From NCBI GenBank assembly GCA_048213135.1, contig PS015083.1:62001-84579 (forward strand): DNA of 22,579 nucleotides. Direction: 5' to 3'. How positions within the stretch are numbered: position 1 is the stretch's first letter; each line of letters begins with the position of its first letter. This DNA is from Reclinomonas americana ATCC 50394 (Eukaryota). The notes under the pieces were generated by a model that was not told where the DNA came from, searched no databases, and worked only from the letters and a program-made list of their open reading frames with translations. Shown one piece after another: positions 3,001 through 22,579 of this stretch. Made by a program: the position numbers and the translations under genes.

Positions 3001-6000
3001 CACCGATGGACGCTGGCGGAACTACACCCGATGCTTGAGTTCCTGATCGTGGCCGACGACTTGATTGACGAGGAACTGTCGGTCGAGATTGAAGAGGTAT
3101 GTTTCTCAAACGTGAAGAAACTGCCTCTGCAAGTCAATGCAACTAATCGTATGTTTTGCACACTCTTTCTAGCTTATGGACGGTGGTGTCAAGGACTTTA
3201 CCGCACTCACTCTGGTGATTAGCGAGTCCATCAGCGGATGCGCGATCTGTTTCATCCTGTTCGGCGCCTACTGGTTTCTCACGCGACAAGTCAGGCTTGT
3301 CGATCAGCAGATCAGTTGCGCACGCACTTGGCGGTAAGTGTAATTCTCTGAAACTCACTCATGTGCCGCTTTGTGTTGCAGAGTTCTTCAAGCGACTTCT
3401 GCTGTTGGTGCCAATGGACACGGTGCAGTCGATTGAACAAGTCAAACTGCAACTGCTGCCCGGTTTGCTCTTTCGTGTCTCTGTTGCACCAATTTTATGT
3501 GTGTACCATGTACGCTGACGTTGAGCATGATTGTAGAATCTGTGCTCAAGTCAATGGAGGTCTCGCAGCGGATGAACGAGAGTGAGCAAATGTTCAAGAA
3601 GCTCATCCAGCGTGCGTGTGATTCTCTTTCGAGAAAGAGAGCAAGAGCAGCACTTTCGCTGACTTTACTTGTCGTGCACGACAATTTCAGGGCATGCTGT
3701 GGTGCTCACGACTGATGCGGGCATCATTGAGTCCGTGAACCACACCTTCTGTCGCCTCCTTGGATACGCCAACGAAGATATCATTGGCTGGTTTGCTTGC
3801 ACCTTCATGTGAAAGCTTCTCTCCGTCGTTGCTCTGACTAGTCGACTGGTCTGTCTCCATGTGTATCTTCTCAGCAACATCAAGGTGAGCAGCCGAACAA
3901 TGTCGCTTGTGATAAACAGATTACGAGATCTCATATGCTGCATACAGGTCGTCTGCTCGCCAAACGTGGCCGCTGTTCACGACAGCTACATTGCTCGTCT
4001 TCAGAGTGGCGCCGCCGTATCCGCAAGCAAGCATTTTGGCCGCCACTTTGTGACCACTGTTGCGTGACGCAGTATGTCGAATGAGCGCTTACCTGTGGCT
4101 GAGATGTCGATTGCGCAGGCCTCACATCGCGATGGTCGACAAATTCCTGTCATGGTCACTGTGTCGGAGGGTGCAGTGGGCTCGAAAAAATTCTACTCAG
4201 CCACACTTCTCGACATGAGCAAGAAGCTGCGCGACAAGGAGGTCCAACGGCTCAAGTTAGAAAAGGTACCACCAGCGTGTGTGTTCGTGTACATTAGTCT
4301 CTAGTCGTTGTTGGTGATTAATCATGGACAATGTGTCCTGTGTGCAGTCAACGAGCCTGGCGCATACGTCGCCCGACGCTATCGTTGTTTGCGACACCAA
4401 AGGAATCATTCTGGAGGCGAACGAAGCCATGCTTGGCTTGTTCGGCTACTCGTCGGCAACGGAGGTTGTGGGAAAGAACTGTCGGATATTGATGGCTGCG
4501 TCATTTGGCGACCGCCACAATGAGTTTAGTGTTCTCCTGTTCCTTCACGTAGTTTCCCGCCGTACTCTCACACCGTCATTGGCTCCAGGTACATCGCCAA
4601 CTATGTCAACCGCAACCCCGGCTCGCATGATATCAGTCACGTTACCGGGATGGAGTTTCGTGCCCACGCTACGCACATTCCATGGACTTCACCCACGTCG
4701 TTTGACAAGAGTGGTTACTTGTGTCTGCACAGCGGTCGCGAAGCGCAGGCGCTGCACAAGAAGGGCACCATGTTCCCGGTCCGACTGCACCTAAGCGACG
4801 TGACGATTATGGGCCAACGATACTTGTGTATGCAGTTGCGGGAGATTGTTGACGAGGCCAAGCAGCGAGCGCGTGTACAGGAGTCGATTGACCAAGTGTC
4901 GAGCATTATGGGGACGTCTCCCGATGCAATCTTCTGGTGTGAACCTGACGGCACCATTTGCGACTGCAACACCGCCGTCTCCGCAATGTTCGGCTACACG
5001 CTCGAGGAGTGCAAAGCACGCGACAGTTAAGTGGCAGAGGATGAGTGGACCAACTACACTTCGTGGCTCTGACACACGCTGCTCGTAGTGGTCAACATGG
5101 ACACTGTGCTGCATCCGACCTCCTTCAGCAGTCTCTACGCGAGCCACCAAGATGACGAGAGCGGCGGCTCAGAAGTAACTATAGCGCGCAAGGACGGTTC
5201 AACGTTGCGTCAGTCATTGCAGAAGAGTTGTACAGACTGAAGGTTGATGAGGATGAGCTGACGCGCGAGGTGCTGGTGCGGTTTGCAGTTTTGCGGCTTT
5301 TGTCACCTTCCGCACTTCCACTCTGTCGTATGAGTCGCGCGTGCTGTGTCGTGTATCGGCCATCAACCAGCAACTGCAGCAAGCTCATAGACAGGAGCAA
5401 CGCAACGAGATCATCGTAAAGGTACGGGCCGTCATCATTTCCTCCACTGCAAGCGACTCTTGCTGAACATATAAAACCTTCTTCGTAGCTGCTTCGCGTC
5501 ATGTTCCCAGACCCCGTGATGCAGCACCTGCTACCGCGCAGTGCCAGTATTGCATATGCCGTGCTCAACCCAGTTGCGTGCGACAAATTACATCGGTGGG
5601 GGGGAGTGCCACTGTCTGATGATACGATACGTTGCGGCACAGGTGGTGGACCCAAGTGCCGGAGAGACGCTGGTCGACTTCCACCCCTCAGTGACTGTCG
5701 TGTTTGTCAAATTCTACGGCTTCAAGCGGCCCAAGTCGGAGAGTGACCCGGAACTGGTCTCCGTGTCCCTGACAGAGAAGGTCATCAACTTGAGTACCAT
5801 TTTCGGCATGCTGGATAGCCTCGTGCGCGGACATCGGATCGAGAGGGTCAAGACCATTGGTGTGTGAGGGAGGAGTGAGGAGAGGGAGCAGAAGCGTATT
5901 TATGGACACACAAGAGAGAGAGAGAAAGAGAGAGAAAAAGAACACGACTTGCTTTGTGGTTTTGTGTGCAGCCCCACGACCTTGCGTTGAAACGAAAGAG

Positions 6001-6983: not shown

Positions 6984-7179
6984 ACTAGAATCCGAGAGGC
7001 AATCGACCCACGTATTGTACTATATGTCTCTGGGAGGTTAAATGCACCGTCTGCGATCACGTATCGCCACCAAGTGCAGGGACACGCCTCCTTATTGCGC
7101 TCGGCGACCTTGAACACCTCCACATCGCCCTCCAGCGCATCGCTCTGCGCTGCGGCCGACAGACTCGGTTCTTCGCATT

Positions 7180-7706
7180 CTACACCTGCTTGTCAATGTG
7201 CTGTATCCTCGGCATGCGAAGCAGCACGTTCTGTTGAACTCCACGAGAGAGATCAGCACGCAGTTGACCTCTCTCTCTCACACACACAGGCAGGCACAGA
7301 ACTCCTCCTGTGATCATCGATCCCATGATCTCCATGGCGCCACCAATCGCAATCACACTGTGAGCACAACACACACANNNNNNNNNNNNNNNNNNNNNNN
7401 NNNNNNNNNNNNNNNNNNNNNNNNNNNNNNNNNNNNNNNNNNNNNNNNNNNNNNNNNNNNNNNNNNNNNNNNNNNNNNNNNNNNNNNNNNNNNNNNNNNN
7501 NNNNNNNNNNNNNNNNNNNNNNNNNNNNNNNNNNNNNNNNNNNNNNNNNNNNNNNNNNNNNNNNNNNNNNNNNNNNNNNNNNNNNNNNNNNNNNNNNNNN
7601 NNNNNNNNNNNNNNNNNNNNNNNNNNNNNNNNNNNNNNNNNNNNNNNNNNNNNNNNNNNNNNNNNNNNNNNNNNNNNNNNNNNNNNNNNNNNNNNNTACG
7701 TACGAC

Positions 7707-7794
<88 letters not shown>

Positions 7795-8109
7795 GAAGCA
7801 CACCTGTTGTTCCGTGTGAGCTCCACCTGATCCGTTGCGCCTATCAAGTTGTCAACGAATGCACACTCTCTCACTCTCTCTCACACACGCAGACCTTTGG
7901 TCGACAACAGCGTGGCACAGAACTCCAGGTTCTCTCGCGTGTGTCGCCACAACAGCGGAAACTCATCGCACAACAACAAGAACAGCTCACGCGTCTGCTT
8001 CACAAACACACTCTCAGAGTCACACACACAGAGCGAGAGGTGCTCACCATCACGCGATACTCTCTTCCTCCAGCAACGCAGCTGTCTCGGCGGCTGCCAC
8101 TGTGCTCAT
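7180..8109 (-). CDS. Rogdi/Rav2-like (RAVE/Rabconnectin-3 subunit) gene, apparently frameshifted in exon 1 and lacking the C-terminal half; possible pseudogene
   Basis: GT-AG exons 8109-8048, 7997-7895, 7840-7804, 7357-7303, 7230-7186 give MSTVAAAETAALLEE/EYRVM|QTRELFLLLCDEFPLLWRHTRENLEFCATLLSTK|GATDQVELTRNN|SVIAIGGAMEIMGSMITGG|NVLLRMPRIQHIDKQ. This resembles, from memory, the ROGDI N-terminal half (AVLEEEFRWLLHDE...[23 protein letters not shown]). 3' end uncertain: TAG at 7180-7182 or one more short exon to ~6985. Confidence 0.55.
7378..7696. other. Assembly gap (N run), within an intron of the Rogdi-like gene
   Basis: N characters flanked by CA repeats; exon phases on both sides are compatible. 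Confidence 0.95.
7708..7792. repeat. (CA)n microsatellite
   Basis: Perfect AC dinucleotide run of ~85 nt. Confidence 0.98.
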
Positions 8110-8166
8110 TCTTGAATGTCCTCGTCCTCTCACTCGCCTTTCAGGCCCTTTCACAACACAACCACA

Positions 8167-11006
<2,840 letters not shown>

Positions 11007-11223
11007 GAGGGCAGTCATAAAGGGGGAACGAGATTGTGGAGTGACAAGTTTTGGCTCATTCGACGGAGTGTGTTGTTCATTACAAAGACCTCGCATAGAG
11101 AGTGAGCAAAGTGGCACCCCTTGTCTCTGAGGCATCCTCACCATCAACACCACCACCAGCAGCTCTCCTCCCACTGTGCGTGATTGGATTCTAGCTCTTC
11201 CTTCGCTTCGTTGTTGCTTTGGA

Positions 11224-14200
11224 ATGGAGGCAAGCCGACGTGTGAGCAGTCGACATGAGCGACCTTCTGCGGAGCTGTGGCGAGAGGTGTGTATGTGACT
11301 GCGTGGAGTGCTGTCTGTTGTGGCGGGAGATGATGGGATGATTGATCTCTCACACACTCCTATCTTCGCCCAGTACGTCGACGCGCGCAGAGTGGTGAGC
11401 GGCGGGTGCCAGAACGTTGTTGGAGAAGTCTCTTTGTCTCTCGCACACTCAATCTCCCCTACTCTTGTTCTCCACGTGAGCAGCGCGATGACATCAAGTT
11501 GGTGACAGAGGCCTGCCGCACACTCCAAGTGCTCACGGACAGCATGTCTGGTACGCCGTGATCTCTGTCTCTCTCTCTCCTCCACTTCCGCCCACAAGTT
11601 GGTCACCTCTACGTGTGCACACAGTGAGACCTCGCGATCGTTTTCTCGACGAGAGCGACATGCGATCGCCACTGGTGTGCATGAAGGGATCGGTGCCGTA
11701 CTCGGTCGGCGGTGTGGTGAAGCAGTGCCCGTTGGCCATTTGGATCCCACGCTCGTATCCCGAATCGTGCCCGCTGTTTGTTGTGCGCCCGTCGTCACGC
11801 TCGACCGAGCCCATGTTCCTCAACGCCAACAATCGGTGGATCAGTGCTGACGGTCTGCTGCCATTGTTTGTTTCGCCTCTGCGTCTGTGTAAGCTGACTG
11901 TGTGAGCAGGTGTGGTACAGCACGAGTACCTGTCGGTGAGAGTGGTGTTGTTGTCAGATGATGCAGGGTCGTGTCTCACAGGTTCGCACAGACGTGGGAG
12001 TCGAATCACGGCCTGCTTCCGATGGTGGCCATCTTGCGTGATTTGTTCTCCACCGTGCCGCCACTGGTGCCAATCGCATCAGAAACTCTGCCCGTGGCCA
12101 CCGCCACAGTGCCGTCTGCGTCAGTCGCTGCCGCCACCGCTGCTGTGCCAGTGGAAACGGTCGTCGATGTTGTACCTCAACGTGTAGTGACTTCCGGGCG
12201 CACCCGCATCGCGACGACAGCGGCCGCAACAGCAGTGCAAGCAGCAGCGGTGCCGCCTGCGTCGACCGCGGACGTTGTGGATATTACACGCACACGAAGT
12301 GCGCGGGTGGGTGCTGGTCGTTCTGCGGTTGAGCCCTCGGCGCCACCACCACCACCACCGCTTCAACCGTCACGAATGCCATCTGCTCCCCCTCCCCCCC
12401 TCCCTCCTCATCCACCGCCGCCGCCGTCGGCTCCGATCCTTGCGTCGGCACCGACCGGTCCGCCAGCACCTCGTCCTCACATCGATCCCCCAGACGAGGT
12501 GCCGTTTTCAGTTTTGGGTTCGCCACCGACCGCTGCCACGTATAATCGTCACCCGCCGGCGCCAACAGCGCCGACTACGGTGACAGTAGCACCAACTGCG
12601 CCGTTGCCTGGAGTCGTACGGAGACCCTCGCCGTCGGCGGCTGGGACTACGACGACGACAACGCCAGCACCTGTTGGAGTTGCGCGGAGACCCTCGCCTC
12701 CTGCTGCTGTGTTTACGACGACGACGACGACGACCGCAACACCAATGGTGCCTGTTGGAGCTGTCCGGAGACCCTCGCCGCCGGCACCTGTGACTACGAC
12801 AACGACAACGCCAGCACCGACGGCATCTGTTGGAGTTGCGCGGAGGCCCTCGCCTCCTGCTGCTGTGTTTACGACGACGACGACCGCAACACCAATGGTG
12901 CCTCTTGGAGCTGTCCGGAGACCTTCGCCACCTGCTTCTCTGACTGCGACAACCACGGCGTCGACGGCACCTGTGGGAGTTGCGCGGAGACCCTCGCCAC
13001 CTGCTACTGTGACTACGACGGCGATTGCGACGGCACCAACGCCTCTTAACGGCGCGCGGAGACCCTCGCCGCCGGCATCAGTTACAACGACGACAACAAC
13101 AACAACACCCACGGCAACAGCTGCTGTTGCTGTTGCCGCACGCCGGCCTTCTCCACCTGCAGCATTTGGCGCAATTGCGCGAGCTGGTCCGCCTGCAGCC
13201 AGCGCGGTCACTTTGCCATCGCCACCACCACCGCCGGTGACTGCCGAAGCGCCTTCTCAGTCGTTGCTGTCGCTGCTTTCCAGTGGCGATCGCACCACCC
13301 CGGCCGCCATCCATCTTCCAATGACATTGTGGCAGGTAGAGCAACACAGAACGAGCCTCTTGTTTCCTTTGGTGTACGTGTGTCACAGCCAATATCTCGC
13401 TGCAGGCTCCTGCCGACGACGACGACGATGACGATGATGATGATGATGACGAGGATGATGACGAAGCCGATGAAGAGCATGACCAAGTTGCCCCGAAACC
13501 CCTCGGCGGTTCTCCGCCTGGAAAGGACACTGGAAGGAGACCACGGCCCCTTCCTTCTGCATCTTCCTCATCGTCGTCATCTTCAGCCTCCGCCCCGCCA
13601 CACGCACCACCCGATGAAGTGGTGAGCACTCCTCGCGTGTACGGCAGCGCGGAGGAAACCGAGCTGGCCGAGCCACTTGATCCCGCGCTAGTTGGCAAGG
13701 ACACTTGTCAACTGGTGTCCGAGTTGCGTGCGCTGCAGCCGCTGGAAGAGACAGCAAACCGCAGGTTACATGATCTGCAGTACTTGAGCAAGACTATGTA
13801 CCGGCGGTGAGCGGCGTTTCGTTGCCCATGATACACGCAAGCTTCTTCGGCCCCTGATCGATTCTCGCAGGTCTGCCGATCGAGCCGACCGCGACCGCAG
13901 CCTCGCGCAAGTGCGCGGCGAAATAGACGAGCTGAAGGAACGCAAGAAGCAGATCCTGCGCGTGCTAGTGCAACGAGCCAAGTCCGGCGGTCTGCAAGTG
14001 CTGGAGGACAAGGACATTTACCTGGCTCTGTTGGAAGAAGTGGATCTCATGTCGCACGATGTGTGGCTCACGCACCACGTGTACCAGAATGGCGACTATC
14101 GGTTCGCGACTTCATCCTTTTGTTGCTCTACTACCCGCAGCAGGCACACTGACAAATTGCGCGCGCGTACGTGCAGCTCACGGATGGACATGTTGTGTGA

Positions 14201-16130
14201 CATGGAGACTGCGGTTGCCGGTTTGTTGGGCGCACTTGCTGTTGGTGACGGCAAGTCTGTGTCTCACGCGATGGCGTACATGTACAGGGGTGGATTCTGG
14301 ATTGTTCCTGGCCAGGCGCCAGCTCTCAGACTACCGAATAGTTGCATCCTCGATGATACTCTTCTTCTTCACACTCTCGTACTTAAGCACGGAGGGTATT
14401 CATGGCGCATGCAGATTCAGGAAGTGGTCACTGGGCGCATCTTCAAAGTGTCTTACGGCGGCAAGCAGTTTGTCTTGAAGGTGGGCGAGCAGCTCCATTC
14501 GTGATGCGTTGGCTGGGCACTCACCCTCACTCGCAGGTGTATCCCTACACCGACAGGACATTGTTTGAGAAATCGCTGCGTGTGCTCTCCCGTATCAGGC
14601 ATCCAGGAGTCATTCAGATCCGAGGTCTATCTTGTCGCTCTTCAAAGGTTGTACTCTAGCATGCACCGTCCTCACAACCTGATCGATCCACCACTTGCGC
14701 AGGCTACTTTGTCGATGAGACCTCGCGTCAGTATTACTTGCAGATGCCATACTATTCGGGCGGCTCGCTACGGGATTGGCTGGCGACGCACACCTCGTCA
14801 ACCGTTGAGAATTATTCGGCCAAGATCGAAGGTTTGTGTGTGTGCGCGAGACGTCGTCAATTCCACAAGTCCGCCAACGTCGAATTCGTGATCGCAGTCA
14901 TGCGCAACTTGCTGAATGCCGTGTCGTTCCTCCACTCGCACGGTATGTGACAGTGGTTTGCCTGCTTATTACTCCCCCGTTGTTACTCACCAAGTGTATG
15001 CGACAGGCATTGTGCATCGAGACCTGAAACCATCAAACGTGGTGATGAGTGCACTGTCGCAGCCGGTGATCATCGATGTGGATCTTGCAAAGGACCTGTC
15101 CATGCAGGGAATGCTGTTTGGCGACGACCGCACTGTGACCGGCAGAAGCGTTGTTGTCGGCACTCACGGCTATCAGGTGCGTCTCAATGAGGTTGACGTG
15201 GGGGAACAATGATTGTGTCGTTGACTGTGAAAATTTCAGGCGCCCGAGTTGATGCGAGGAGGCAAGCACACAAAGGTAGCTTCATTTGTTGACCACATCC
15301 ATGGGTACGCTGTTTTTCCTTACCTCGCTGATTTCGTTATTGCCGCAGGCCTCGGACATGTATGCTGTTGGAATCGTCTTTCTCAAGTGTTGCCTCGGGG
15401 TGGCATTCGACCCGACCCGGCTACAGTACGTCCGTCAGACTGGCAGATACATGCTGCCCGAGTTCCCACAGCAGCTCCGTGCAATGCGGCTCCTCATTGA
15501 GGACCTCACTGCTGAGGTGGGTGGTGGCGCACCCGCTGACACCTTGCCTGTCCGCCACACGTTCTCAATATCTGTGACAGAACCCCGAGGAACGGCCGCA
15601 GGCGCACGAGCTGCTCTCGAATGCTGCGTTTGTCGTGACGGACATGCTGAGTCGGCACGGGCACTTGCGGCCTGCGTTGGAGAAGGCACATCGTCTGCAA
15701 GATGCTCTGCGTTCACTGCAGGGCCGAGTCCCTCTTCGTTCTGCTGTAGCCGATCGGCCATCAGTGCAAGTGAACAGAGCGCGGGTCGTCGATGATCTGG
15801 TTGACAAGGTTTGGAGAGTGCGCGGGGCACAGCAATCACGCTAGTGTTCGCTCTCACTCTGCGCGGCGCAGATTCAGTGCATGCCCGAGGACGACATTTT
15901 CTTGGCATGGAGCGTTGCGTTGCCGTGCATTCACAGTCGTCTTTGTGCGCACTAACCATTTGGATGCGCTGACAGTGCAAGTTTGAGGGCGAGGAGGGAG
16001 TTGACGCCGGCGGTGTGTCGAACGAGGTGCAAAGCGAGTTCTGGAGCCAGCTGGAGGAATCGACATATGTGCAACGCAATGTGGATGGCGTGTGTTTGGT
16101 GGCGACACCGGGAGGCATGCGTGCCGACAG

Positions 16131-16191
<61 letters not shown>

Positions 16192-17502
16192 GTGTAAGGT
16201 GTATGAGTTTACCCACCTGGAGACTCATCGCGCGCATGGTGTCACAGGTACCGACAGCTGTGGGTTGGTGCGTTGTGTTTGTGTGTGCCGCAGTGACGAG
16301 GAAGATAATGTGCCTCACTCGTGCTTCAGGTGTGGGCAAGATGATGGCGCGATCTCTCGCCGTGTTCAAGACGCTGCCGATCGAGTTCCACGAGTGCGTC
16401 TACGAAGCGCTGCTGGGTCGCCTACCAAGAATAGGTGACGATCATCCGGGCGGTGGCGAGTCGTTCGAGCAGCTGCTGGTGCGGGCACGACTTTTCTCCA
16501 TTCTGTTCACACCCACAGTATGTTTCGTGCTCATCGCATGCAACGTAGGAGGACACGTCTCGTACCGAGGGCTTGCTGAGCGAGCTGCTGGACTATACCG
16601 ACAGTACGTCGTCCCTCTTTACGAGAACAAAATCGATCTCTCTCGCCTCATGCTGCAATGCTGCAGGGTGGAATCCAGAGCAGGCTCGCAGTTGTCGGTC
16701 TACATTGCGCGACTGGCGGCAGGCAGTGGAACTGGTAACGCTGCCCGAGGTGTCGCTAGGCGGGCACGTTCTCGAAGTCGACAGCGACACGGCGACGGAA
16801 GGTCAGTCGTCGTGGTGTTCCACGCGCAAATTGATGCATAACTCAATGCGCACGCGCAGCTCACGTGCGAACGCACATGATGCTGTACTTGTACACGGAA
16901 CTGATTGGTGGTCGCTGGGCGGCGTTCGAAAGTCTGCACAGCGGATTCACCAGGCATGTGTGATCACAGCTTTACTTTTCGTTTGCGGGCGTGCTGACAC
17001 CCTCTCGTACTAGTGTGTGTGGCTCCGAAATGGAGTCTGCACTGAACGACATGACTGGTGCCGAGGTGCAGCTGGCGTTCCAGTGTCGGCGACACATTGA
17101 CGCTGCCATGCTGCTCAACAACACCTACTTTGTGTTTCGCGAGGGTGCTCGTCCCGAGGAGGAGCAGTGGTTCACAGCTGTGCGTTTGCGAGTTGTTTTG
17201 TCGTTGCTTTCTTCCTTTGTTGACGATCTTGCGTGCGCGGACAGATTGTGCGCCGCCTCTCGCCGACACTACTGCGTCGTCTCTTGCGCTTCGCCACGGG
17301 TCTCTCGGCGATTCCGCCTTCTGGAAATCTGGCGCAGAGAATTTCTGTCACATTCCTCGGCCCTGGGCGCAGTTCTGGAACACTGCCCTCCTCGCATACT
17401 TGTTCCTCGGTGCTCGATATGCCGCAATACGATTCAGAGGCACAAATGGAGGAGCGGCTGCTGGAGTCGATCGGTCAAGAATTCGCGCTGCTCTTTGCAT
17501 AA
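11224..17502 (+). CDS. UEV (Tsg101/Vps23-like) - Pro/Thr-rich - acidic - coiled coil - protein kinase - HECT E3 ubiquitin ligase fusion protein (multi-exon)
   Basis: UEV: YVDARRV|RDDIKLV...LVCMKGSVPY...CPLAIWIPRSYPESCPLFVVRP...WISADG...HEYLS...W.SNHGLLPMVAILRDLFSTVPPL. Kinase: FVLK, IRHPGVI, MPYYSGGSLRDWL, GIVHRDLKPSNV, IIDVDLAK, GTHGYQ|APEL, ASDMYAVG, NPEERP. HECT: KFEGEEGVDAGGVSNE, GVGKMMARSL, LRRLLRFATG, LPSSHTCSSVLDMPQY (catalytic Cys codon 17401-17403). Splice phases are consistent across the domain junctions. Stop TAA 17500-17502. Confidence 0.85.
12605..13165 (+). repeat. Coding tandem repeat, 8 units of 66-84 nt encoding (G/A)-x-x-RRPSP(P/S)-A..-poly-Thr
   Basis: RRPSP codons start at 12619, 12685, 12766, 12841, 12916, 12985, 13057, 13141; units 2-3 and 4-5 are near-identical, forming a ~150 nt higher-order duplication. 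Confidence 0.92.
13415..13483 (+). repeat. (GAC/GAT)n trinucleotide tract encoding a poly-Asp/Glu stretch
   Basis: Exon from 13406 reads APA-D(13)-EDDDEADEEHD. Confidence 0.85.
16137..16195. repeat. (GT)n microsatellite in an intron of the HECT region
   Basis: GT dinucleotide run with one interruption. Confidence 0.97.
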
Positions 17503-17585
17503 ACTAGTAATCATGTATCGCATCATCCGCCCGCGTTGCGAACAATCGCGTTCATATAACTCAACGAAAAAGCCAGGCACTACGA

Positions 17586-20500
17586 CTACACCGACGCAGA
17601 GGGACCAGCAGCAGCGGCAGAAGCAGGAGCCGGCACGAGTTGGATGCGAGAAGTCTCCGCAGCGCGCACCTGCTCGTCGGTCCAGTGCATAGGCTTCAAC
17701 CGGCCACCGAGCCAGTACTGGACTTGATCGTCGTAATGCGGGGTGCCGCGAACGCCACTCTGGCCCGTCGGCAGGATGTTCATCGAGCGGGACAAGTCGG
17801 CACAGTCGACAACCATGCGGTACGAGGGCAGGAAAATGTGTGCCAGGTAGTTATTCACGGGATCGGCGGCCGTGTTGTTCAACGTATCAGCATCCTGTGC
17901 GCGATGAGAAAATGAGACTGTGCGGTCCACTGCAGCATAACTACTCTCAACGCACTCCGCCAAGCTCGAATGGGCCACGGTTGAAGGCGCCGACCGCCGC
18001 GCCAATCGGATGCTCCATGGTGAACTGGTGCAGACGGCCCCATCGCCACTTGTTGCGGTTCGAACCTGCAGCAGCAGCACGAGTTAAGGTCGGCTACCAA
18101 CAAGTACCAGACCAGAGGGCTGACAAACACTCACCCAGCCTCCGCTTCAGCTCGTCATGTGCGTCCTGCAGCGCATGTGCCACCAGCTGCTGCTTGCCAC
18201 CCACTTGGCGCAGCAGTTCCGAGTCCTGGTCCAGTTGCAACAGTCGAACCAGAGTGTTGATCTCCGTGCCATACAACGCACCTGGTGACCGTCAGCGTGA
18301 GCAACGAGTCGTGTGTCTGGCGCGCACACATACATCCTCGTTCAACGCAACTGTCCTCCTTGATCAGGGGGAACACCAGCTTGCCGGTCATCATGTCGGT
18401 GACCTCCGGGCCGATCGTGTCCTCCAGCACATTGCGCAGCAGACGAGCTCGGAACACCTGGAGTTGAAGTGCGATTCTCACGTGAATGGCAGAGAATAAT
18501 GCACGCAAGAGGACCACACAATGAACCTGGTAAATGGCGGCGGGGGCAGATTGCGCATCCATGACGCCGTCAAAGTTCAAGAACTCCTGGAACAAGTCTC
18601 GCAACTCCTGGCTGAGGCCACTGACATCGACTTCGCGAACACTGCGTGCCAGGCAAGACGATAAGTGAGACGAGCACGAACATGGCTGGCCACTCGTCAT
18701 GCGACGCAACGCGGCCTGCAGATCCAGTGCCGCCAGCGACTTGATATCCATCTGGTGACGACGCGCGTCCTCCAGAGTGTACTTGCCACCATCTGCAGTG
18801 GTTTCCTGCAGACACAATCACGTCAGCCATACTGATTTCCAAAACACAAAGAGACGACGCACAATAATGAGATCCTTGATGCGACGCGCACGGTTGCCGT
18901 TCAGCCACAGATTGCCGAGATCGTACGGGTACGTCTCCGGATCGATGACGCGATGATTGCAGCTGATAATGTATCCTACATCAATGGGCACGGGCAGTGT
19001 GAGTCATTGCATTGCGTCCATCCGCAACCACATTAAAAGAAGCGGACCTTGCGCAGGATTCAGACAGTGCGGCATCTCGTGCTTCGGCACAAAGCCAGTC
19101 CATTCGGTGCGGCTCGTGTTGCCGGGCTGCGGGAAGCGCGGCGACACGGAGCGAATCGGCACTGCAGCCGCACGCGTGAGCGGGTAGTCGCGCGATGTGC
19201 CAACAATGCGTTAACTCACCAGCACCCGACAAGCAGTAACCAATGTTGCCGTCGACATCGGCGTAGGTAAGGTTGAGGCACACGCAGTCGAAGCCCTGTA
19301 CAAAGGCCTTGAAGCTGGCCCAGTCGTGCAGGTGCATTTGGTCGCGCAAATAGTGCACAAAGTACGGCATCGTGCCGGCCCAGCACTGGCGCTCTGCCGG
19401 CAGCTCGCTGGCGGCCACTGCATGTGCACAAGTGAGTGCGACAGCTTGTTTGGAACACCACAAAAAAAAAAGCAAACCTCGCGGGAGGGGTGGCGACAGG
19501 AACACTGCCTGCACTGCAATGGCGCGGTCAACGCTGTGCGGCGCCGACAGCACCGAGCTGATCACTGGGCCGTGATGCGACACGCGCACCGTCTGAAAAT
19601 GCGAGGCGTGCACGTGAGTCTCTCTTGAACTGTGCACAGGGGGGGAGTGTGCGTCTCCACAGACCAGCGTTTCGTCGGGCTTGCTCTTGATCTTGATCAC
19701 CTCGTGGATCACCTGGAAATCACGCCACTGTTCGTCGTACTTGTACTGCCCGTCATTCTCCGGGTTCACCTCCTCGATGAAGATGTCGGCAATGTCGGCA
19801 AAGCCGAGCGTGATGCCGTACGTGATGCGGTCGGTGTGGCCAATGGTGACGCCTGGCATGGTGGGCATGGCCACGCCTGGGGGAAGGGAGAAGGGGGAAG
19901 GGGGCAAGGAGAAGACAGAGGGAAAGAGAGAGGGACAAGGGAGAAGGGAGAGGAGGGGGGAGCAATGAGAGTATGAACTGTGACGAAAAGCACTGGTCTT
20001 CAACAAGCGTACGCACAGATACCATATGACACGCTCACACGCTCACACACTCGCACAAGACATGTTTCTTTGTCTCTCTCTCTCTCTCCCTCCCTTCCCT
20101 CCCTCCCTACAAACCAGTGACATTGATGCCAGCACTCTCGCACTTCAGGTGGAACTCCATCCAGATCGACGGCAGACCGACAGCCAAGTGCGGATCCGAC
20201 GCCAAAATGGGCTTGCCAGTGTCGGTGAGAGCGCCACTGGGGTGCGGGGGAGTTGGCGATGAGCCGCGTGCATCAAAATGTGCGACGTGCAAGTCACTGG
20301 TAGGCTCACCTGACCACCCACGAGTTGGAGCCCTGGCCCGTGGGAATGGCACGCAGCGGCTCCAGGTTCACCTCGTTGACGCCGAGCGGCAGGATGGTGG
20401 GCACATACGACGGGTGCCAGAAATCGAGCTCCTTGGCCGCCTCTTCGCCGATGCGGTCCACAATGAGCTGGTTCACCAGCGGCTCGTACCTTTGTGTGCA

Positions 20501-20898
20501 AGCATGCGTCAGTACGAGCGGGGACGCACATTGACAGGGAAAAACTCACCAGCCGTAGTTCATCTCGAACGAGATAAGACTGCACGTACGTGTAATGGAG
20601 ACGATGAGAGGCTGAACTCCATCGCGCACCAGACGCACACACACATACCGATGAATGGCTAGCAAGTCGGCGATGGTGAACGGAGCCGTGGCGATGCCGG
20701 CGAGCGTAAACTCCACCGGTCGCTTGTACGCCGCGCCGGCAATGTACGCATTGATGCCGTCGACATACGACGAGAACCAGCGTCGCGTCTCCTCATCAAT
20801 GTGCGCCGCATCCAGCAACCCATTGGCGGCAAACCGCAGCGTACGCGCCAGTCGATCGGTCGGCAGCGCCGCCTCACCAGCAAACTCGGACAAGCGAC
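17586..20898 (-). CDS. Penicillin acylase / AHL acylase family Ntn-hydrolase (peptidase S45), main body
   Basis: GRLSEFAGEAALPTDRLARTL; YVDGINAYI...PVEFTL; beta-subunit start GQG-SNSWVV|SGALTDTGKPILASDPHL (nucleophile Ser codon 20329-20327); PGVTIGH; VRVSHHGPVIS; LNLTYADVDGNIGY; PSYRMVVD; PTGQSG..GTPHYDDQ; stop at 17586-17588. Confidence 0.92.
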
Positions 20899-20961: not shown

Positions 20962-21264
20962 NNNNNNNNNNNNNNNNNNNNNNNNNNNNNNNNNNNNNNN
21001 NNNNNNNNNNNNNNNNNNNNNNNNNNNNNNNNNNNNNNNNNNNNNNNNNNNNNNNNNNNNNNNNNNNNNNNNNNNNNNNNNNNNNNNNNNNNNNNNNNNN
21101 NNNNNNNNNNNNNNNNNNNNNNNNNNNNNNNNNNNNNNNNNNNNNNNNNNNNNNNNNNNNNNNNNNNNNNNNNNNNNNNNNNNNNNNNNNNNNNNNNNNN
21201 NNNNNNNNNNNNNNNNNNNNNNNNNNNNNNNNNNNNNNNNNNNNNNNNNNNNNNNNNNNNNNNN
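20962..21264. other. Assembly gap (N run); probable breakpoint of a mis-oriented contig
   Basis: N characters; genes on the two sides do not continue into each other. Confidence 0.95.
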
Positions 21265-22112
21265 TTAGATCCCATTGCTCGCCATTGACCTGTTGTTTTG
21301 ACATGAATGAGTTGAAATGGACTGAAACTAGGCGCAGTGCGCGTCGCAGGAGACACACACCAGTGCGACGCAAGCGCTCTCGGCCAGCGACTTGGCAATG
21401 ACGCCTGCAATGTCGAGCGGAGTCGTCTTCCACGCCACGCCCGGCACCTCACGGCCCGTCGGCAGCGTAATGGTAATCGGTCGATTCTCCGCCGCCTTGG
21501 CTGTCATGATGAGATGACAGAGAGAGCAAACGAAATCGGCAGTCAGTCGCTCACGAGTCAGCAAAGAGTCAACTGACATGCAGCACACACACACACACAC
21601 CGCTGGCACGCACCTTCAATGGCCGCCTGCTGCTCGGCATACAGGCGATCAAACAGATCAATGCGGTACGGCACAAACTCGGGGATGGCAAAGTCCTCCA
21701 CGCGCTTGCCCGCCGACCCAGAGGCAGCATCCTGCACCAAGAAAGAGCACAAAAGTGAGACAAGTCAGGAGGCGCGAATCACACTCTCTTGTCTCGAATT
21801 CCTCGCGTTGACAGACCATAAAAAGAGCTCATGGAAAAAGAAAGCGAGCACACAAGAGAGAGAACACACACGCGCGCAAGTGGCACACAACCAACACGAC
21901 ACACTCAAAGAGGGTTCCGCGGTGGGGGGAGGTGCACGACAAGTGACATTTCCGAGGGCATGTGCAAACACTTTTCTCTCTCACTCGCACGCGCACTCAC
22001 GACTGACCTTGGCCGGCTTGGCGGCCTTGCCCTTGGGGCCCTTGGCCGGCTTCGGGGCAGCAGCTTCAGCAGCAGCGGGTGCAGCAGCAGCAGCAGCAGG
22101 TGCGTCACTCAT
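21265..22112 (-). CDS. TARS1: Cytosolic threonyl-tRNA synthetase, 5' part (N-terminal extension + TGS domain), cut off by the gap
   Basis: MSDAPAAAAAAPAAAEAAAPKPAKGPKGKAAKPAK|DAASGSAGKRVEDFAIPEFVPYRIDLFDRL...|AKAAENRPITITLPTGREVPGVAWKTTPLDIAGVIAKSLAESACVAL|VNGEQWDL matches the eukaryotic ThrRS pattern (PI.ITLPDG...G..WKTTP..IA..IS..LA.....A.VNG..WDL). Confidence 0.88.
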
Positions 22113-22208
22113 TCACGCAATTGAACACAAAAGTGTGTAAGAATCACAAGAAATTTCACGACCTTCATCTCCGCTCGTTCCTCGTCTTGTACGCAAACTG
22201 CAATCATC

Positions 22209-22385
22209 ATGGTGCGGCTCTCAGGCTTGTGAGAGTTCTCCTTGCACCATGTGCTTACGAGTGCGTTGTCTTCAGGGCGGACTCATTGCACGCATGATTG
22301 GTGTCTTCCGTCGCCCTCCGCAACGTGGCGACTTTGAGTGCCCCGGCATCACGCACCCCGTGCACATCTCTGTCGACGAGTTTGG

Positions 22386-22433
<48 letters not shown>

Positions 22434-22573
22434 GAGGGATATTGACGTCATGTTTCGCACAGGTGTTCCGCATATTGTGGCGGAGACCGAGGCCGACTTG
22501 CTGTTCGCGCAGGGATGGTACGTGGCGAAAGAGCGCCTCTTCCAGCTCGAGCTCATGCGCCGCTTATCGGCCG
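22209..22573 (+). CDS. First three exons of a penicillin acylase (S45) gene; N-terminus of the gene at 17586-20898
   Basis: MVRLSGL|GGLIARMIGVFRRPPQRGDFECPGITHPVHISVDEFG|VPHIVAETEADLLFAQGWYVAKERLFQLELMRRLSA-g| is the S45 alpha-subunit start; phase-1 donor at 22574. Confidence 0.88.
22390..22430. repeat. (CT)n microsatellite in an acylase intron
   Basis: Perfect CT run. Confidence 0.95.
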
Positions 22574-22579
22574 GTGCGT

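What the first reader, a model, noticed from the sequence alone, without database searches (positions are those of the whole stretch)
11224..17502. Tsg101-like UEV + protein kinase + HECT ligase in one polypeptide
Seen: phase-consistent GT-AG junctions link UEV, proline-rich region, coiled coil, kinase and a HECT domain with its catalytic Cys. Known: Tsg101/Vps23 is UEV-PRR-coiled coil-steadiness box and binds ubiquitin and P(S/T)AP motifs; HECT ligases (Nedd4/Rsp5) ubiquitinate ESCRT cargo as separate proteins. Here the Tsg101-like front end is kept, but kinase-HECT sits where the steadiness box would be. I do not know of a described protein with this architecture. Inference: a single-chain reader/kinase/writer that captures PTAP-bearing or ubiquitinated targets (endosomal cargo adaptors or viral late-domain proteins, i.e. 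a possible integrated decoy) and modifies them.
Basis: partly seen in the sequence, partly recalled or inferred. Interest (0 to 1): 0.85.

Follow-up and report, generated by a model that had tools for sequence, protein, structure and literature searches.

The report
UEV–kinase–HECT ligase fusion gene
An intron-rich gene of an unidentified microbial eukaryote appears to join a Tsg101-like ubiquitin-recognition domain, a protein kinase and a HECT ubiquitin ligase in one protein, a combination found in none of the searches made here, but with no transcript or orthologue yet to prove that the front end belongs to the same gene.

Summary
On the + strand, 11224-17502 can be read as 23 exons joined by 22 GT-AG introns (20 of 22 are 54-89 nt). 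They give a stop-free 1562-aa protein: Tsg101-type UEV, a Pro/Ala/Thr-rich linker with five P(S/T)AP motifs and eight RRPSP(P/S) repeats, an acidic/Ser tract, a predicted helix, a Ser/Thr kinase (HRD kept, DFG replaced by DVD) and a full C-terminal HECT domain with its catalytic Cys. The kinase-HECT join lies inside one open exon (15581-15808). The UEV-to-kinase link depends on two introns. It is supported by coding-potential scores and by the lack of usable start codons in exons 7 and 8. No RNA run, orthologue or genome could be obtained. I put a single gene at about 0.8. There is no Vps23 core (steadiness box), so it is not an ESCRT-I Vps23 orthologue. Kinase-bearing HECT ligases were noted in Naegleria and Ectocarpus in a 2013 survey, function unknown, and artificial Tsg101-UEV-HECT chimeras work in human cells. 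The natural three-way fusion did not turn up in my searches. Verdict: a new variant of a known kind, function inferred only, moderate interest.

The parts
11224..17502 (+). Whole predicted gene: 23 exons, 1562 codons plus TAA. Exons: 11224-11286, 11374-11394, 11484-11550, 11625-11852, 11910-11935, 11992-13335, 13406-13806, 13871-14480, 14537-14624, 14703-14831, 14898-14942, 15007-15176, 15240-15275, 15349-15516, 15581-15808, 15872-15913, 15976-16135, 16294-16434, 16549-16667, 16723-16801, 16860-16959, 17014-17179, 17245-17502
   Evidence: model, phases, translation; all 22 introns GT-AG; codon score best in the model frame for 20 of 23 exons
11224..12081 (+). Tsg101-type UEV domain (aa 1-165), split over exons 1-6
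   Evidence: Pfam UEV E 3.4e-11. Best solved relatives are 7 Tsg101 UEV chains, E 0.005-0.01. The spliced model matches a UEV HMM over aa 21-180
12082..13335 (+). Pro/Ala/Thr-rich linker (aa 166-583), in the same exon as the last UEV helix. Five P(S/T)AP motifs start at 12334, 12379, 12424, 12562 and 12592. Eight RRPSP(P/S) repeats lie in ~25-aa units between 12619 and 13158
   Evidence: 75/150-nt tandem units at 12645-13101. P(S/T)AP: 5 observed against 0.94 expected, P=0.003 in 20,000 shuffles
13406..13806 (+). Exon 7: poly-Asp and poly-Ser tract, then the start of a helical/coiled-coil segment. No in-frame ATG from 13340 to 13796
   Evidence: 3' half scores as coding in the model frame; 0.17% of null windows reach it
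13871..14480 (+). Exon 8: helix (aa 717 to about 755), unassigned linker, and kinase strands beta1-beta3 ending at Lys920 (14478-14480). The frame is closed upstream at 13785-13787 and the first in-frame ATG is at 14049
   Evidence: 13872-14048 coding; 0 of 5010 null windows reach it; helix over residues 2-38 of the exon, pLDDT 56-69, remainder unreliable
14406..15634 (+). Ser/Thr protein kinase domain (aa ~896-1150): Lys920, Glu931, HRD Asp1013 (15021-15023), Asn1018, DVD in place of DFG (15075-15083), APE 15240-15248, subdomain XI Arg1137
   Evidence: Pfam Pkinase pieces. PDB: all 11 hits with E<=0.01 are kinases, and 24 of 26 weak hits are kinases. Residues located
15581..15808 (+). Single open exon holding both the end of the kinase (subdomain XI) and the start of the HECT domain, so the kinase-HECT fusion does not depend on a splice
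   Evidence: one uninterrupted frame
15764..17499 (+). HECT domain (aa ~1194-1562), N-lobe very divergent. Catalytic Cys1530 at 17401-17403, 32 residues before the C-terminus
   Evidence: Pfam HECT E 6.8e-16. All 58 PDB hits are HECT ligases, best E6AP at 2.6e-8 with the Cys aligned. Collinear 344-column alignment with locus L001
14081..14140 (+). Possible extra 60-nt in-frame intron (optional; would remove 20 aa of the linker)
   Evidence: Pyrimidine-rich acceptor scores 4.76 but the donor scores -2.37. Local codon score is low. Unresolved

Best explanation
One gene encodes a 1562-aa HECT-type ubiquitin ligase of the kinase-bearing kind, and its N-terminal module is a Tsg101-like UEV domain followed by a long disordered linker. 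Shown: the domains, their order, the in-exon kinase-HECT join, retention of the HECT Cys and of the kinase catalytic residues (Lys, Glu, HRD Asp, Asn, first Asp of DVD), absence of a Vps23 core, and five P(S/T)AP motifs in its own linker. Inferred: the protein is not an ESCRT-I subunit, because it has no interface for Vps28 or Vps37. It acts instead as a self-contained ligase in which the UEV supplies non-covalent binding of ubiquitin or of a proline motif, either on substrates or on its own linker (self-inhibition or self-association, as I recall for Tsg101's own PTAP). The kinase phosphorylates the bound partner or the RRPSP repeats of its own linker to gate the ligase, and the HECT transfers ubiquitin through Cys1530.
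For: - Domains.
- Model: phase-consistent, stop-free and GT-AG throughout.
- Kinase-HECT join: inside one exon.
- UEV end and linker: in one 489-codon open frame.
- Exon 7 and the first 59 codons of exon 8: both score as coding in the model frame (0.17% and 0 of 5010 null windows reach the observed scores). Neither has a usable in-frame ATG, so each must be entered by splicing from upstream.
- Intron 7: donor and acceptor score 6.8 and 7.2, above the 95th percentile of background GT and AG sites.
- Gene boundaries: the neighbouring genes end at 11006 and 17586, which leaves no room for other partners. The large minus-strand ORFs carry no family.
- P(S/T)AP enrichment.
- Precedents: kinase-HECT proteins exist (PMC3673628), engineered UEV-HECT chimeras are active (PMC2958808), and Tsg101 UEV contacts a Nedd4 HECT domain directly (PMC9944984, abstract).
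Against: - There is no transcript evidence and no orthologue.
- The intron 6 donor is weak (1.2, near the background mean), and 67 frame-compatible GT-AG pairs could join exon 6 to exon 7, so a consistent junction there is not itself strong evidence.
- In-frame ATGs lie just before two donors (13321, seen as the Met five codons before the exon 6 donor in the translation; 13796). An internal start giving a separate kinase-HECT product therefore cannot be excluded.
- The linker's codon usage is uninformative.
- The kinase has DVD instead of DFG and only one of the three glycine-loop glycines, so it may be weak or inactive.
- The recalled Tsg101 PTAP/Ub contact residues are not conserved in the pairwise alignment.
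- The N-lobe pieces of the HECT find nothing on their own.
Confidence: 0.62

Rival explanations
1. There are two adjacent genes on the same strand. One is a short UEV-linker protein, with or without the acidic tract, ending at the in-frame stop reached by reading through intron 6 (13429-13431) or intron 7 (13808-13810). The other is a separate kinase-HECT ligase starting at ATG 13796 or 13321. The fusion would then be an artefact of chaining compatible splice sites in a very compact genome.
For: The intron 6 donor is weak and 67 alternative compatible junctions exist. Stops follow directly if either intron is retained. ATGs lie 4-5 codons before both donors (for 13796; translation for 13321). 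Intergenic spacers here are very short, 218 and 83 nt. Kinase-HECT without UEV is the form recorded in the literature. None of the 14 database UEV relatives carries a kinase or a HECT domain.
Against: Exon 7 and 13872-14048 score as coding. The second gene's promoter and 5' UTR would therefore have to lie inside the coding sequence of the first, and the two reading frames would overlap at 13796-13810. A UEV-linker protein with neither coiled coil nor core domain would be an odd product.
Confidence: 0.18
2. It is one gene, but the UEV works in cis as a pseudo-E2 for its own HECT domain. It would occupy the E2 site or ubiquitin exosite, or position an acceptor ubiquitin, rather than act as a substrate or PTAP reader.
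For: Tsg101 UEV binds the Nedd4-1 HECT domain through its ubiquitin-binding elements (PMC9944984, abstract). The recalled PTAP-pocket residues are not conserved.
Against: The five P(S/T)AP motifs in the linker point rather to proline-motif binding.
Confidence: 0.12
3. It is a decaying or non-functional fusion, or an integrated decoy that baits pathogen late-domain proteins.
For: The kinase motifs are atypical (DVD, degenerate glycine loop). The HECT N-lobe and the UEV are very divergent.
Against: The frame is open over 1562 codons and 22 splice junctions. The catalytic Cys and the kinase catalytic residues are kept. Codon scores are coding-like. No immune-receptor domain was found in the gene.
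Confidence: 0.05

Closest known systems
Tsg101 / Vps23 (ESCRT-I subunit)
   Same: N-terminal UEV of the Tsg101 Pfam family, followed by a proline-rich region with P(S/T)AP motifs and then a helical segment
   Different: It has no Vps23 core or steadiness box and carries a kinase and a HECT domain instead. The UEV is only 25-43% identical to the nearest of 1.84 billion representative proteins. The recalled PTAP-contact residues are substituted
Kinase-bearing divergent HECT ligases ('GL-Bikonta') of Naegleria gruberi and Ectocarpus siliculosus (Grau-Bove et al. 2013, PMC3673628, passages read)
   Same: An unusual protein kinase domain in the same protein as a divergent HECT domain, with function unknown
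   Different: No UEV is mentioned there. Family membership of this HECT could not be tested because I could not fetch those sequences. The C-lobe here is closest to E6AP and AREL1 among solved structures
[quoted passage not shown]
   Same: A UEV fused N-terminal to a catalytic HECT domain. The chimeras act on PSAP/ASAP-bearing Gag and need the HECT Cys
   Different: They are artificial, use human parts, and have no kinase and no long linker
UEV-UEV-RING protein of Saccoglossus kowalevskii (P0001)
   Same: A natural fusion of Tsg101-type UEV domains to an E3 ligase domain
   Different: The ligase is a RING, not a HECT; there is no kinase; it is an animal protein and is uncharacterised
MAP3K1/MEKK1 (kinase plus PHD/RING-like E3 motif; PMC4356348, abstract start in the search listing only)
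   Same: Kinase and ubiquitin-ligase activities on one chain
   Different: The E3 module is of a different type and order, and there is no UEV

Membership tests
Tsg101/Vps23 (ESCRT-I) | N-terminal UEV domain (E2 fold, Pfam PF05743) | tested here: met
   Pfam E 3.4e-11, 43.5 bits against a cut-off of 27. The spliced domain matches a UEV HMM at 71.7 bits. The HMM's six sequences were found with exon 4, so support for exon 4 is circular, but support for exons 2, 3, 5 and 6 is not. Seven Tsg101 UEV chains are the best PDB hits
Tsg101/Vps23 (ESCRT-I) | C-terminal Vps23 core / steadiness box that builds the ESCRT-I core with Vps28 and Vps37 | tested here: not met
   No PF09454 hit on any + strand piece. 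An HMM of the C-terminal 190 aa of 5 canonical Vps23 proteins scores -0.7 bits on the whole model
Tsg101/Vps23 (ESCRT-I) | Proline-rich region and coiled-coil stalk after the UEV | tested here: inconclusive
   The Pro-rich region and five P(S/T)AP motifs are present. The helix is predicted only at low confidence and has no significant similarity to Vps23 stalks
Tsg101/Vps23 (ESCRT-I) | P(T/S)AP- and ubiquitin-binding residues of the UEV | tested here: inconclusive
   In the ungapped alignment, Tsg101 Y63/Y68/F88/M95 align with V/K/V/S. The roles of these residues are recalled, not taken from a call. At about 31% identity the alignment could be out of register
HECT E3 ubiquitin ligases | C-lobe with the catalytic Cys near the C-terminus | tested here: met
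   PF00632 E 6.8e-16. The Cys in the HTC motif aligns with the E6AP active-site Cys. It lies 32 residues from the end
HECT E3 ubiquitin ligases | Complete bilobed domain (N-lobe with the E2-binding part) | tested here: met
   The spliced model aa ~1225-1553 aligns collinearly with a contiguous HECT in L001: 344 columns, 24% identity, E 2e-16 against that one 1.2-kb locus. For the first N-lobe motif, 6 of 6 weak PDB hits are HECT ligases. The other N-lobe exons find nothing on their own
Eukaryotic protein kinases | Catalytic core motifs: beta3 Lys, alphaC Glu, HRDxKxxN, DFG, APE | tested here: inconclusive
   Lys920, Glu931, the HRDLKPSN loop, APE and the subdomain XI Arg are present in order. 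DFG is DVD and the glycine loop keeps one Gly. The Pfam pieces score 27.5 and 15 bits, below the 31.7-bit cut-off, because the domain is cut into about 8 exons. PDB hits are kinases, and exon 14 finds none
GL-Bikonta kinase-HECT group (Grau-Bove 2013) | Placement in that HECT clade by phylogeny | not tested
   No Naegleria or Ectocarpus sequences could be fetched, and all three word-based homologue searches returned nothing

The most novel reading that the evidence does not exclude
This is a natural 'Rosetta stone' protein that hard-wires three activities which animals and fungi keep on separate proteins: Tsg101-type UEV recognition, phosphorylation, and HECT ubiquitin transfer. Its five own P(S/T)AP motifs and eight RRPSP repeats would form a phospho-switchable self-binding linker. 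Kinase activity would release the UEV from the linker and switch the ligase on, or drive its self-assembly on ubiquitinated membranes. If so, it gives genetic evidence that the UEV-HECT contact seen in vitro for Tsg101 and Nedd4 is an ancient functional coupling.
Probability: 0.15. Interest if true: 0.75.

Novelty: new variant of a known kind. Interest (0 to 1): 0.52.

Why it matters
Domain fusions are among the cleanest genomic hints that separate proteins work together. Tsg101's UEV domain and Nedd4-type HECT ligases cooperate in endosomal sorting and virus budding. A direct UEV-HECT contact was reported only in 2023, and artificial UEV-HECT fusions are active. A natural fusion with a kinase in between would support that coupling from an independent lineage. 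It would also offer a compact single-chain system for studying how phosphorylation, ubiquitin reading and ubiquitin writing are coordinated. It further shows that a Tsg101-type UEV can be used outside ESCRT-I. If the locus is in fact two genes, it is just a UEV paralogue next to a kinase-HECT ligase of a type already recorded.

Tried and rejected
- Whole genome: none is held for this window, so a separate canonical Vps23 or paralogous kinase-HECT genes could not be sought.
- RNA: no RNA holder was listed for 11100-17700, so read laying could not be used.
- Word-based homologue searches with exon 8, exon 15 and exon 23, 'longer' proteins: 0 hits each. The tool itself calls this weak evidence.
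- HMMER over 1.84 billion representatives with UEV exon 4: only 14 hits, none close. Failing to see the architecture there is therefore weak evidence.
- Metagenome scan with exon 8: 232 pattern matches, 0 confirmed. The scan with exon 23 gave one unrelated-lineage HECT (L001), useful only as a collinearity ruler.
- ESM Atlas with exon 15 and exon 8: no usable hit, and hits at 0.79 only.
- AlphaFold of exon 8 alone: mean pLDDT 39, too poor for a fold search, so none was run.
- PDB searches with exons 18-19, 22 and 14 found no HECT or kinase.
- Spliced proteins cannot be given to the Pfam, folding or complex tools, so whole-domain Pfam scores, a full model and a UEV-HECT complex test were not obtained.
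- An extra intron at 14081-14140 was considered and left open.
- Literature searches gave no description of UEV+kinase+HECT. Supplements were closed, so domain tables in the supplements of PMC3673628 or of kinome papers may list such proteins unseen by me.
Full report
**What the window is.** The window is eukaryotic: about 57% GC, with many short GT-AG introns and compact spacing of genes. Everything below therefore rests on the window itself, on a few distant database proteins, and on papers.

**The observation.**
- Stop-to-stop frames on the + strand between 11.2 and 17.5 kb carry recognisable pieces. Pfam finds UEV (PF05743, E 3.4e-11, 11492-11905) and HECT (PF00632, E 6.8e-16, 17224-17502).
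- Pfam also finds two Pkinase pieces (E 2.5e-6 and 0.017). Each is below the family's 31.7-bit cut-off because the domain is chopped into small exons.
- Reading coordinates off, I built a 23-exon model from ATG 11224 to TAA 17500-17502. All 22 introns are GT-AG. Twenty of the 22 are 54-89 nt and the other two are 114 and 158 nt. Phases agree throughout, and the product is 1562 aa without a stop.
- Introns are T-richer than exons (29% against 21%).
- A codon log-odds score was trained on the domain-supported exons plus two ORFs of the neighbouring amidase gene. It is highest in the model frame for 20 of 23 exons, and for 5 of the 7 exons not used in training. The exceptions are exon 1, the low-complexity exon 6 and exon 19.

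**Does splicing restore whole domains?**
- UEV: an HMM built from six UEV proteins found matches the spliced model over aa 21-180 (71.7 bits, E 3.3e-24). The match runs through the junctions of exons 2 to 6, whereas the unspliced ORF covered only profile positions 18-87. The six sequences were found with exon 4, so support for that exon is circular; support for the other exons is not.
- HECT: a metagenomic locus (L001) carries an intronless HECT domain. The spliced model aligns to it collinearly over 344 columns (24% identity, E 2e-16 against that single locus), from the first N-lobe motif in exon 17 to the end of exon 23.
- The last exon's best solved relatives are E6AP and AREL1. All 58 listed hits are HECT ligases, and the Cys of the HTC motif (C1530, 17401-17403) aligns with the E6AP active-site Cys.
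- The rest of the N-lobe is very divergent. Its exons find nothing on their own. Exon 17 has 6 of 6 weak hits to HECT ligases.
- Kinase: exon 12 finds only kinases (11 of 11 at E<=0.01), exon 10 finds mostly kinases (24 of 26 weak hits), and exon 14 finds none.
- Read directly, the kinase keeps the beta3 Lys (920), the alphaC Glu (931), the HRDLKPSN loop, APE and the subdomain XI Arg. It has DVD for DFG and a single glycine in the glycine loop.

**One gene or two?**
- The kinase-HECT join is not in doubt. Exon 15 (15581-15808) is one open frame that holds both the last kinase helix and the start of the HECT domain.
- The last UEV helix and the whole Pro-rich linker lie in one 489-codon frame.
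- The UEV-to-kinase link rests on introns 6 (13336-13405) and 7 (13807-13870).
- Intron 7 has good signals, with donor 6.8 and acceptor 7.2, above the 95th percentile of background sites. Intron 6 has a weak donor (1.2), and 67 other frame-compatible GT-AG pairs could join exon 6 to exon 7. A consistent junction there is cheap.
- The stronger argument is this. The 3' half of exon 7 and the first 59 codons of exon 8 score as coding in the model frame (0.17% and 0 of 5010 wrong-frame or antisense null windows reach them).
- Yet exon 7's frame has no ATG from 13340 to 13796. Exon 8's frame is closed at 13785-13787 and has no ATG before 14049. Both must therefore be entered from upstream by splicing.
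- The only escape is a second start at ATG 13796 or 13321, each 4-5 codons before a donor. That would put a promoter inside coding sequence and make two reading frames overlap.
- The neighbours fix the outer limits. A carboxylesterase-like gene ends at 11006, and a convergent penicillin-amidase-like gene ends at 17586. The large minus-strand ORFs inside the locus carry no family.
- I put a single transcript at about 0.8. This is inference, not observation.

**Anatomy of the rest.**
- The linker (aa 166-583; Pro 22%, Ala 19%, Thr 18%) has three PSAP and two PTAP motifs, all within aa 250-339. That is 5 observed against 0.94 expected on shuffling (P=0.003). For the front part alone, 0 of 20,000 shuffles reach 5.
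- After these come eight RRPSP(P/S) repeats in ~25-aa units, seen as 75/150-nt tandem repeats.
- Exon 7 adds a run of 12 Asp and a run of 8 Ser. A leucine- and charge-rich helical stretch then bridges exons 7 and 8.
- A single-sequence AlphaFold model of exon 8 gives a helix from its first residue to residue 38 at pLDDT 56-69 and is unreliable beyond that.
- About 105 residues between this helix and the kinase match nothing.

**What it is not.** There is no Vps23 core or steadiness box, neither by Pfam on the pieces nor with an HMM of five canonical Vps23 C-terminal halves (-0.7 bits). A defining feature of Tsg101/Vps23 is thus tested and not met. This is a UEV-bearing paralogue, not the ESCRT-I subunit. 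In the ungapped alignment with human Tsg101, the positions I recall as PTAP/ubiquitin contacts (Y63, Y68, F88, M95) are V, K, V and S. Binding of P(S/T)AP therefore cannot simply be carried over, although the enrichment of such motifs in the protein's own linker is suggestive.

**Relatives.**
- Three word-based searches (exons 8, 15 and 23) found nothing.
- A full HMMER pass over 1.84 billion representatives with the UEV exon found 14 proteins at E<=0.001, 25-43% identical.
- All 14 are UEV proteins. Five have a Vps23 core, one has four UEVs, and one is a UEV-UEV-RING protein from Saccoglossus. None of the 14 has a kinase or a HECT domain.
- Because no close relative was recovered at all, this says little about how widespread the fusion is.

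**Literature.**
[quoted passage not shown] UEV and Tsg101 do not occur in its main text.
- Zhadina and Bieniasz fused Tsg101 residues 1-157 to three HECT domains and obtained Cys-dependent activity on PSAP/ASAP-bearing Gag (PMC2958808, section 8).
- Nyenhuis et al. report a direct contact between the Tsg101 UEV and the Nedd4-1 HECT domain (PMC9944984, abstract).
- Five full-text searches gave no natural UEV-kinase-HECT protein. Supplements were closed and may hold domain tables I could not see.

**Mechanism.**
- Shown: the parts, their order, and the retained catalytic residues.
- Inferred: the protein is a self-contained HECT ligase whose UEV provides non-covalent recognition of ubiquitin or a proline motif. 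Its kinase acts on the bound partner or on its own RRPSP linker, and its own P(S/T)AP motifs may fold back on the UEV or link molecules together.
- A cis role of the UEV as a pseudo-E2 on the HECT domain is a live alternative.
- The 'integrated decoy' idea has no support in the data.

**Verdict.** The architecture is probably real as one polypeptide but is unproven. It is a new combination of known modules in a protein class already noted but never studied. Function is inferred only.

Noticed in passing
L001:73-1047: The metagenomic HECT locus used as a ruler has four in-frame TAA/TAG codons (289, 544, 799, 814) inside a well-aligned HECT domain. The first TGA comes at 1045, just after the domain ends. 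This looks like a ciliate-type code in which TAA/TAG are read as a residue.
   Followed up: partly
window 17586-20800 (-) and 22141-22578 (+): A penicillin-amidase-like (Ntn hydrolase) gene lies on the minus strand, convergent with the finding (Pfam E 4.3e-30, 3e-16, 8.9e-5 on three pieces). The start of a second such gene lies on the + strand at the window's end (E 2.3e-12, profile positions 9-47). This family is unusual in a eukaryote.
   Followed up: no
window 17503-17585: Only 83 nt separate the stop of the UEV-kinase-HECT gene from the stop of the convergent amidase gene, so their 3' UTRs must overlap or be extremely short.
   Followed up: no
window 8116-11006 (+): The upstream gene has a carboxylesterase domain (Pfam E 1.2e-22). 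Its last open frame ends at 11006 after a hydrophobic, membrane-anchor-like stretch.
   Followed up: no
window 4318-5030 (+): Two PAS-domain pieces (E 1e-7 and 1e-5) indicate a PAS-containing gene further upstream.
   Followed up: no
window 7001-8000 and 21001-22000: Two stretches of much lower GC (0.37 and 0.41 against about 0.56). The first has a perfect (AC)42 run at 7708-7792 and long open frames in several frames, so it is low-complexity DNA.
   Followed up: no
window 16136-16195: A (GT)30 microsatellite fills the start of intron 17, so the exact donor there is ambiguous and the length may vary between strains.
   Followed up: partly
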